DNA of 378 nucleotides from Escherichia coli (GTDB lineage: Bacteria; Pseudomonadota; Gammaproteobacteria; Enterobacterales; Enterobacteriaceae). Every line of letters begins with the position of its first letter. Positions within the stretch are counted from its first letter, which is position 1. The translations under genes were made by a program, and so were the position numbers. Under the pieces are notes generated by a model that was not told the origin of the DNA, searched no databases, and saw only the letters and a program-made list of their open reading frames with translations. Shown here one piece after another: positions 1-378 of the stretch. Location of the stretch: NCBI RefSeq assembly GCF_003334305.1, contig NZ_QOWS01000081.1. The stretch is one strand, 5' to 3'.

Positions 1-378
1 CGCCTCCCCCGGCAGCAGCGGCTCAAAGTGAATGCTCCGCCCGCCGTTGTCGTTGAGTACCAGTGCATCATCGCGTAGCTGTAAGCGGATATCAGAAGGC
101 GCTTTCCAGCCGGGGCCAAACACTCCCACCGGCGCGGGTGTCCTGGTCCGGTAGCTGCTGTAGGTGCGGGAGAGAATGAACGGCAGCGGGCCGGGCAGCG
201 CAAGGTCCGTCTCGCCGGGCAGCACCTTCGCCCCCAGCAGCGGATTTACCGGGTTGCCCGAAGTCATCCCGCCCGGACACACCGAGCACGCCACGCCGGT
301 GGGCGCGCCAATTCTTACACCTGCCGAACCCTGGACAATGGGACCGCCATACTGAGTCATATCTCCCTGACGCGCCGC
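1..378 (-). CDS. rhs: Rhs-family polymorphic toxin protein, N-terminal portion (PAAR-like domain plus linker); partial at both ends, true start just beyond position 378, gene continues beyond position 1
   Basis: Seen in sequence: the reverse complement read in phase from position 378 gives 126 sense codons and no stop. The translation begins AARQGDMTQYGGPIVQGSAGVRIGAPTGVACSVCPGG, which from memory matches the conserved N-terminus of E. coli-type Rhs proteins (MSGKPAARQGDMTQYGG...), followed by the Pro/Gly-rich stretch LPGETDLALPGPLPFILSRTYSSYRTRTPAPVGVFGPGWKAPSDIRLQLRDD. GC3 in this frame is about 73% by hand count, consistent with a genuine reading frame. The paralog (rhsA/B/C/D-like) cannot be resolved from 378 nt, so only a family-level symbol is given. 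Confidence 0.9.
220..378 (-). other. Region encoding a PAAR-like domain (PAAR_RHS type) at the N-terminus of the Rhs protein; boundaries approximate, and the first residues of the PAAR motif lie outside the window
   Basis: The translation shows the pattern (P)AARxGD...GGPIVQGSxxVRIGxPxxG...C-x-x-C, which resembles the PAARxGD / GSxxVxIGG signature of PAAR repeat proteins. Established knowledge: many Rhs proteins carry an N-terminal PAAR-like domain. The domain end was placed by eye, not by HMM. Confidence 0.55.

What the first reader, a model, noticed from the sequence alone, without database searches (positions are those of the whole stretch)
352..369. Internal in-frame ATG with an adjacent AGGGAGA motif: risk of mis-called start that truncates the PAAR motif
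On the minus strand, an ATG at 358-360 (the M of MTQYGG) is immediately preceded by AGGGAGA (362-368), a Shine-Dalgarno-like hexamer. The spacing is only about 1-2 nt, shorter than the usual 5-9 nt, and the six upstream in-frame codons (AARQGD) encode part of the conserved PAARxGD motif. The real start is therefore most likely an upstream ATG outside the window, about 15 nt beyond position 378 if the remembered MSGKP prefix applies. Gene callers may nevertheless choose 360 as the start.
Basis: partly seen in the sequence, partly recalled or inferred. Interest (0 to 1): 0.3.

Follow-up and report, generated by a model that had tools for sequence, protein, structure and literature searches.

The report
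Decoy start codon inside Rhs gene

Summary
On the minus strand, ATG lies at 358-360, AGGGAGA at 362-368, with one base between them. The six codons upstream read AARQGD. The window is 100% identical to the 5' end of rhsD-type "RHS element core protein" genes in many E. coli genomes, directly downstream of vgrG.

In those genomes the sequence beyond position 378 is ATG-AGC-GGA-AAA-CCA (MSGKP). It has an AAGGA Shine-Dalgarno 8 nt upstream and an in-frame TGA one codon before the ATG. RefSeq, K-12 rhsA-D and NCBI's curated RHS_core model all start there.

AGGGAGA is a by-product of the codons CAG-GGA-GAT (Gln9-Gly10-Asp11). Paralogues and orthologues mostly use GGC or GGT, so the motif is not conserved. 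It lies 2 nt from the ATG (optimum 5-9 nt). SD-like motifs next to in-frame start-like codons occur at chance level in this G-rich gene.

Gene callers almost never pick Met12: 3 of about 218 cluster representatives do. One is a clear mis-call in a locus without the SD-like motif. One of the other two (the only one inspected) has a damaged upstream start.

The N-terminus is one PAAR-like repeat, not a full PAAR domain. The finding is ordinary and already reflected in annotation.

The parts
358..360 (-). Internal in-frame ATG, the Met12 codon of the Rhs core protein. It is a sense codon, not the start.
   Evidence: The annotated start is 33 nt upstream of it. Met is present here in 107 of 114 homologues and is replaced by A, G or L in 7.
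362..368 (-). SD-like heptamer AGGGAGA, formed by the codons CAG-GGA-GAT (Gln9-Gly10-Asp11, window 369-361). It is a by-product of coding.
   Evidence: duplex with the anti-SD is -8.2 kcal/mol, and the paired part ends 2 nt before the ATG. Synonymous variants remove it in rhsA and rhsC (GGC GAC) and rhsB (GGT GAC). In 28 N-terminal loci the Gly codon is GGC 19, GGA 4, GGT 4, GGG 1.
307..378 (-). Residues 6-29 of a single PAAR-like repeat. The whole repeat is residues 2-29, and residues 1-5 (MSGKP) lie just outside the window.
   Evidence: A profile of the N-terminal 47 aa aligns residues 2-29 to the last repeat of solved PAAR proteins: 9rce_c E 4e-9, 4jiv_D 1.2e-5, 4jiw_D 2.5e-3, also Tre23 7pq5 and Tas1 6ox6. 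Pfam PAAR_motif scores only below threshold.
253..306 (-). Residues 30-47, a linker with invariant Cys36 and Cys39 (ACSVCPGG). By position it corresponds to the Tse5-NT segment that anchors inside the Rhs shell. This is inferred.
   Evidence: Invariant columns. In Tse5, residues 30-47 are anchored in the shell (PMC10684867). No direct sequence match to Tse5-NT was obtained.
250..252 (-). Pro48 codon. It aligns with Pro48 of Tse5, the first residue after that protein's N-terminal self-cleavage site (K47|P48). Cleavage here is inferred.
   Evidence: RhsD residues 48-129 align with residues 1-79 of 8cp6 chain B, E 1.1e-10. The cleavage site is taken from PMC10684867.
25..258 (-). DUF6531 (PF20148), the N-terminal plug of the Rhs shell, residues 46-123.
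   Evidence: E 1.8e-19, model positions 1-74 of 74.
1..378 (-). Coding sequence for residues 6-131 of an rhsD-type RHS element core protein. The true start ATG lies 15 nt beyond position 378, outside the window.
   Evidence: 100% identity to many E. coli chromosomes; annotation. NF041261 RHS_core scores 2486 bits against a cut-off of 2000, with protein 1-1131 aligned to profile 1-1134.
2..9 (-). A second, stronger SD-like motif, GGGGAGGC (codons for Pro-Gly-Glu-Ala), one base before an in-frame GTG (codon 132) just outside the window. It is another coding by-product and serves as an internal control.
   Evidence: -10.9 kcal/mol.

Best explanation
The ATG at 358-360 (-) is the codon for Met12 of an E. 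coli rhsD-type Rhs core protein. Translation starts 33 nt upstream of it, 15 nt beyond the window, at ATG-AGC-GGA-AAA-CCA (MSGKP). That start is served by an AAGGA Shine-Dalgarno with an 8-nt spacer in the 66-nt gap after vgrG. The adjacent AGGGAGA is not a ribosome-binding site. It arises from the codons CAG-GGA-GAT for Gln9-Gly10-Asp11 of the PAARxGD motif, with Gly10 happening to use GGA in the rhsD lineage. Its GGAG core ends only 2 nt before the ATG, so a 30S subunit bound there cannot place that ATG in the P site efficiently. The eleven residues upstream of Met12 carry the PAAR signature of a single PAAR-like repeat. By analogy with Tse5, this repeat is the part that docks the toxin on the VgrG spike.

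Shown here: the sequence, the upstream start, the annotation, the lack of conservation of the motif, and the homology to PAAR repeats.

Inferred: that no initiation occurs at Met12, and that the N-terminal segment binds VgrG and is cleaved before Pro48.
For: - Upstream sequence and the in-frame TGA one codon before the MSGKP ATG.
- Annotated starts at MSGKP in 3 RefSeq records identical to the window and in K-12 rhsA-D. In each K-12 paralogue no other in-frame start codon follows the preceding stop.
- The NCBIfam RHS_core equivalog aligns from residue 1, at 2486 bits against a cut-off of 2000.
- 215 of about 218 cluster representatives with a complete N-terminus begin Mxx(x)KPA(A/E)R. K4, P5, A6, A7, R8 and D11 are invariant in 114 of 114.
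- Among K-12 rhsA-D, every difference in codons 2-11 is synonymous: CCA/CCG, GCG/GCA, GGA/GGC/GGT, GAT/GAC. That is the signature of translated sequence.
- The SD-like form is confined to a minority: Gly10 is GGA in 4 of 28 N-terminal loci.
- The spacer is 2 nt against an optimum of 5-9 nt (PMC7264876).
- SD-like motifs next to in-frame start-like codons occur at chance level in this gene.
- A profile of residues 1-47 matches solved PAAR proteins.
- vgrG lies immediately upstream.
Against: - The internal motif pairs with the anti-SD more strongly than the real RBS does: -8.2 against -5.7 kcal/mol in the E. coli C context, and against -4.4 in K-12.
- Met12 is well conserved, in 107 of 114 homologues.
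- No experimental initiation data for rhs genes could be consulted. The Ribo-RET paper does not mention rhs in its text, and its tables are not held.
- The predicted mRNA fold around the site is no more stable than shuffled sequence (z = -0.84), so structure does not obviously block the internal site.
Confidence: 0.94

Rival explanations
1. Met12 is a genuine secondary initiation site in the rhsD lineage. It gives a minor isoform that lacks residues 1-11, and so lacks the PAAR signature and cannot load on VgrG.
For: A strong anti-SD duplex (-8.2 kcal/mol) lies directly upstream. The true RBS is weak in the K-12 context (-4.4). In-frame internal starts near the 5' end exist in other E. coli genes (bioRxiv 10.1101/520783).
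Against: The 2-nt spacer is well below the 5-9 nt optimum (PMC7264876). The motif is lost through synonymous changes in rhsA, rhsB, rhsC and most orthologues, so it is not under selection. Met12 is replaced by A, G or L in some homologues. A stronger SD-like motif next to an in-frame GTG occurs by chance in the same window.
Confidence: 0.03
2. The internal AGGGAGA acts during elongation or initiation, either as a pause site or as a standby site that holds 30S subunits near the true start 24 nt upstream.
For: Intragenic SD-like sequences have been reported to slow ribosomes or stimulate frameshifting (abstract of bioRxiv 10.1101/2020.04.16.045807). The motif lies close to the real start.
Against: It is not conserved at synonymous positions among paralogues or orthologues. 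SD-like sites occur throughout this gene at a composition-driven rate. No structure or RNA family is detected.
Confidence: 0.02
3. Met12 is the only real start, and the upstream MSGKPAARQGD is untranslated leader.
For: One database entry (P0110) is called this way although its upstream ATG is intact.
Against: KPAAR and D11 are invariant, with only synonymous DNA changes among paralogues. Residues 2-29 are homologous to PAAR repeats in solved structures, beginning at residue 2. A properly spaced RBS lies before the upstream ATG. The curated HMM begins at residue 1.
Confidence: 0.005

Closest known systems
E. coli K-12 RhsD (b0497) and its paralogues RhsA, RhsB and RhsC (RHS element core proteins, NCBIfam NF041261)
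   Same: Same gene family and the same N-terminus, MSGKPAARQGDMTQYGG. The window is 96.8% identical to K-12 rhsD (12 mismatches in 378) and 100% identical to rhsD of E. coli C and many other strains. K-12 rhsD carries the same AGGGAGAT-ATG.
   Different: The window is not the K-12 allele. In E. coli C and similar strains an intact vgrG and an AAGGA RBS precede the gene. In K-12 the upstream flank is different and the RBS is weaker. rhsA, rhsB and rhsC lack the SD-like motif.
Pseudomonas aeruginosa Tse5 (PA2684; PDB 8cp6), an Rhs toxin with a 47-residue PAAR-like N-terminal fragment
   Same: Same layout: a short N-terminal segment of 47 residues, then Pro48, then the DUF6531 plug. RhsD 48-129 aligns with the Tse5 shell chain from its first residue (E 1.1e-10). 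Tse5-NT is described as containing only a PAAR-like domain needed for VgrG-dependent secretion (PMC10684867).
   Different: No detectable sequence match between RhsD 1-47 and the Tse5-NT chain. Cleavage before Pro48 and VgrG binding are untested for RhsD.
Stand-alone PAAR proteins (Pfam PF05488; solved examples 4jiv, 4jiw, 9rce chain c)
   Same: Residues 2-29, (G)KPAARxGDxTxxGGxIxxGSxxVxIG, align with the last PAAR repeat of these proteins.
   Different: Those domains have three repeats that together form the cone. RhsD has room for only one repeat before DUF6531 starts at residue 46, and it scores below Pfam's threshold.
Documented in-frame internal translation start sites in E. coli (infB, clpB, mrcB, arcB, speA)
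   Same: An in-frame ATG preceded by an SD-like sequence inside a gene, near the 5' end (bioRxiv 10.1101/520783).
   Different: Those sites have experimental support, and some are conserved. This one has a 2-nt spacer, no conservation of the SD-like motif and no experimental support.

Membership tests
RHS element core protein (NCBIfam NF041261, equivalog) | Whole-protein score above the curated cut-off (2000 bits), aligned from profile position 1 | tested here: met
   2486 bits for the first 1131 residues of the gene that contains the window. Protein 1-1131 aligns to profile 1-1134 of 1261.
RHS element core protein (NCBIfam NF041261, equivalog) | DUF6531 plug and YD repeats | tested here: met
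   PF20148 E 1.8e-19. TIGR01643 YD repeat E 3.2e-48.
PAAR domain (Pfam PF05488) | Significant match to the Pfam model | tested here: not met
   best i-Evalue is 0.005-0.06 for the query protein and 1.1e-3 for the best of the 18 family members. None of the 18 reaches E <= 0.001.
PAAR domain (Pfam PF05488) | Three PAAR repeats forming the cone | tested here: not met
   Only residues 2-29 resemble a repeat, and DUF6531 begins at residue 46.
PAAR-like repeat (homology to one PAAR repeat) | Significant profile match to repeats of solved PAAR proteins | tested here: met
   9rce_c E 4e-9, 4jiv_D 1.2e-5, 4jiw_D 2.5e-3. In every case the match is to the last repeat.
Functional bacterial translation initiation site (for the ATG at 358-360) | Complementarity to the anti-SD | tested here: met
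   -8.2 kcal/mol.
Functional bacterial translation initiation site (for the ATG at 358-360) | SD to start-codon spacing of about 5-9 nt | tested here: not met
   2 nt from the GGAG core, 1 nt from the heptamer. The optimum is taken from PMC7264876.
Functional bacterial translation initiation site (for the ATG at 358-360) | Conservation of the SD-like motif among homologues | tested here: not met
   GGA at Gly10 in 4 of 28 loci, and absent from rhsA, rhsB and rhsC.
Functional bacterial translation initiation site (for the ATG at 358-360) | Experimental evidence of initiation (toeprint, Ribo-RET, N-terminal peptide) | not testable with these tools
   The Ribo-RET paper's text has no rhs entry, and its supplementary tables are not held.
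Tse5-type Rhs with a short cleaved PAAR-like N-terminal fragment | Pro at the start of the DUF6531 plug, aligned with Tse5 Pro48, after a 47-residue N-terminal segment | tested here: met
   alignment; PMC10684867.
Tse5-type Rhs with a short cleaved PAAR-like N-terminal fragment | Self-cleavage before Pro48 and VgrG-dependent secretion | not testable with these tools
   Needs protein biochemistry. Only the adjacency to vgrG is shown.

The most novel reading that the evidence does not exclude
In the rhsD lineage only, the chance-born AGGGAGA allows weak initiation at Met12. This would yield a small amount of Rhs protein without the PAAR signature. Such a protein cannot load on VgrG and stays in the producing cell.
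Probability: 0.03. Interest if true: 0.3.

Novelty: already known. Interest (0 to 1): 0.05.

Why it matters
It matters only as an annotation safeguard. A start called at Met12 removes MSGKPAARQGD, the signature of the PAAR-like segment that presumably docks this Rhs toxin on the VgrG spike of the type VI secretion system. A truncated model could then be mislabelled as a plain DUF6531 or YD-repeat protein. Public annotation already places the start correctly in nearly all cases, so nothing new is learned about biology.

Tried and rejected
1. Experimental evidence for internal initiation. The Ribo-RET preprint (10.1101/520783) has no mention of rhs in its text, and its supplementary tables are not held. 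A search for 'rhsD' plus 'start codon' gave nothing relevant.

2. Chen et al. 1994 on minimum SD spacing (PMC523762) is not held. I used the 5-9 nt statement in PMC7264876 instead.

3. RNA explanations. There is no Rfam match in the window at E <= 1. The fold of the start region is not better than shuffles (z = -0.84).

4. Promoter or terminator between vgrG and rhsD. None was found by the consensus scan. This is consistent with co-transcription but does not prove it.

5. A full PAAR domain was rejected. Pfam scores below threshold, and only one repeat fits before DUF6531.

6. Direct similarity of RhsD 1-47 to Tse5-NT. No hit appeared with a single sequence or with the profile.

7. The first protein search returned only short, partial proteins, so a second search with 1131 residues was needed to sample full-length proteins. 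Only the best 120 of each search are listed, so the mis-call rate is a sample, not a census.

8. The invariance of P-A-A-R-Q-G-D-M-T in the loci is by construction of the search pattern. Only the third codon positions and the flanks of those loci were used as evidence.

Full report
**What is in the window.** The minus strand is one open frame. It reads AARQGDMTQYGGPIVQGSAGVRIGAPTGVACSVCPGGMTSGNPVNPLLGAK...LLPGEA. The ATG is at 358-360 (-), AGGGAGA is at 362-368 (-), and one T (361) lies between them.

**Where it comes from.** A megablast search against complete E. coli genomes finds the window in 3,872 of 5,426 genomes, usually in several paralogous copies. Many chromosomes match at 100%, and the match lies under genes annotated 'RHS element core protein' or 'rhs element protein RhsD'. 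In three records that are 100% identical to the window, the CDS begins exactly 15 nt beyond window position 378. A type VI secretion vgrG gene ends 66 nt before that start.

**The real start.**
- In E. coli C the sequence is ...cagaagAAGGAattgaatc ATG AGC GGA AAA CCA GCG GCG CGT CAG GGA GAT ATG ACT..., which translates as N-stop-I-M-S-G-K-P-A-A-R-Q-G-D-M.
The only difference is CCA instead of CCG for Pro.
- An in-frame TGA lies one codon before the ATG, so no earlier start is possible.
- The ATG has an AAGGA Shine-Dalgarno with an 8-nt spacer.
- In K-12, rhsA, rhsB, rhsC and rhsD are all annotated from MSGKP. None has another in-frame start codon between the preceding stop and that ATG.
- The first 1131 residues score 2486 bits against NCBIfam NF041261 RHS_core (cut-off 2000), and residue 1 aligns with profile position 1.

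**Is the upstream stretch really translated?**
- Two protein searches were made, one with the first 131 residues and one with the first 1131 residues. Among their hits, 215 of about 218 cluster representatives with a complete N-terminus begin Mxx(x)KPA(A/E)R.
- K4, P5, A6, A7, R8 and D11 are invariant in 114 of 114.
- Among the four K-12 paralogues, every nucleotide difference in codons 2-11 is synonymous: CCA/CCG, GCG/GCA, GGA/GGC/GGT, GAT/GAC.
- This is the pattern of coding sequence, not of a leader.

**What the AGGGAGA is.**
- It is made of the codons CAG-GGA-GAT for Gln9-Gly10-Asp11. Gly-Asp forces GGNGAY, and the motif looks like a ribosome-binding site only when N is A.
- rhsA and rhsC have GGC-GAC, and rhsB has GGT-GAC.
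- A degenerate pattern for PAARQGDMT was scanned across one genome per species and found 30 stretches. In the 28 N-terminal-type sites tabulated (27 from that scan plus the E. coli C reference locus), Gly10 is GGC 19 times, GGA 4, GGT 4 and GGG 1. The SD-like form is thus a minority synonymous variant and is not conserved.
- It does pair well with the anti-SD: -8.2 kcal/mol, against -5.7 for the true RBS and -4.4 for the K-12 flank.
- However, its GGAG core ends 2 nt before the ATG, whereas efficient initiation needs about 5-9 nt (PMC7264876). No start codon lies at the proper distance.
- In the same gene, 3 of 53 in-frame ATG/GTG/TTG codons have an equally good or better SD-like motif within 18 nt. 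One of these is GGGGAGGC at window 2-9 (-), -10.9 kcal/mol, next to an in-frame GTG.
- The coincidence is therefore at the level expected from this G-rich coding sequence.

**Do gene callers fall for it?** Rarely. Three representatives start at Met12.
- P0110 comes from an rhsA-type locus next to yibF-selAB. Its upstream ATG is intact and in frame, so this is a true mis-call. The motif there is AGGGCGAC, which is not SD-like.
- P0136 and P0183 are from Shigella sonnei. In the P0183 contig the normal start is destroyed: gggagNgcggaaaa, directly after Rhs-core-like sequence. P0136 has no contig on record and its locus was not inspected.
- None of the rhsD-lineage representatives listed, which carry AGGGAGA, was called at Met12.
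- The sample is limited to the best 120 hits of each search.

**What the eleven residues belong to.**
- Pfam finds DUF6531 at residues 46-123 (E 1.8e-19). PAAR_motif matches only below threshold at residues 2-29.
- A profile built from 18 diverse N-terminal 47-mers matches solved PAAR proteins: 9rce chain c at 4e-9, 4jiv at 1.2e-5, 4jiw at 2.5e-3, and the PAAR regions of Tre23 7pq5 and Tas1 6ox6. In each case residues 2-29 align to the last repeat.
- The N-terminus is therefore a single PAAR-like repeat, not a three-repeat PAAR domain.
- Residues 48-129 align with the shell chain of P. aeruginosa Tse5 from its first residue, Pro48.
- Tse5 is cleaved between K47 and P48. Its 47-residue N-terminal fragment is described as containing only a PAAR-like domain needed for secretion with VgrG (PMC10684867).
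- By analogy, RhsD 1-47 is the VgrG-docking piece, and a start at Met12 would delete its signature. That functional step is inferred, not shown.

**Other checks.**
- No Rfam family matches the window.
- The fold of the start region is not better than shuffled sequence.
- No promoter-like or terminator-like site lies between vgrG and rhsD.
- No experimental initiation data for rhs genes could be reached.

**Verdict.** The feature is an internal methionine codon with a coincidental, coding-derived SD-like neighbour. The correct start is already used by RefSeq, by the K-12 reference annotation and by NCBI's curated family model. It is ordinary and scores low for interest. The residual possibility of weak initiation at Met12 in the rhsD lineage is unlikely, about 3%.

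Noticed in passing
window 253-378 (-); L001 2986-3126: The 'PAAR' of E. coli RhsA-D-type proteins is a single repeat (residues 2-29), followed by an invariant ACSVCPGG linker and then DUF6531. It always aligns to the last repeat of three-repeat PAAR domains. How one repeat would cap a trimeric VgrG tip is not obvious.
   Followed up: partly
window 2-9 (-): A stronger SD-like motif, GGGGAGGC (-10.9 kcal/mol), lies one base before an in-frame GTG (codon 132) just outside the low end of the window. It is another coding by-product (Pro-Gly-Glu-Ala).
   Followed up: partly
P0186-P0190: E. coli proteins of 1662-1717 residues combine VgrG domains (PF04717, PF05954) with the Rhs shell. They start MSTGLRF... 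and cover 85% of the query. These are VgrG-Rhs fusions that lack the PAAR-like N-terminus.
   Followed up: no
L011-L013 (Collinsella MAG), L016 (Akkermansia muciniphila MAG), L024 (Lentisphaerae MAG): Short contigs binned into non-enterobacterial metagenome-assembled genomes carry E. coli-type rhs 5' ends. The start region of L024 matches the E. coli sequence in the window apart from one extra T in the RBS spacer. This is probably binning contamination.
   Followed up: no
L025 4087-4112 and 4303-4328 (Trabulsiella odontotermitis): There are two copies of the rhs 5' end 216 nt apart. The first runs into unrelated sequence after about 23 codons, and the second continues as the full gene. It looks like a duplicated or displaced N-terminal fragment.
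   Followed up: no
L040 1400-1500 (Shigella sonnei FTZJ01000140.1): Rhs-core-like coding sequence (…GGLKRVVKKEHADG) runs directly into the KPAARQGD region across an N. This removes the normal start codon. It is either a recombination junction or an assembly artefact, and it explains why P0183 was called from Met12.
   Followed up: partly
L035 1180-1262 (K-12 rhsD upstream) against L001 2920-2985: K-12 rhsD has a different 5' flank, with no vgrG and a weak AAAGGG RBS, although the coding start is identical. The K-12 copy is detached from its T6SS partner gene.
   Followed up: partly
P0054, P0166: Other downstream starts are occasionally called in homologues: Met43 (MTSGHPVNP...) and a start at about residue 28 (MGAPTGV...). 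The loci were not inspected.
   Followed up: no
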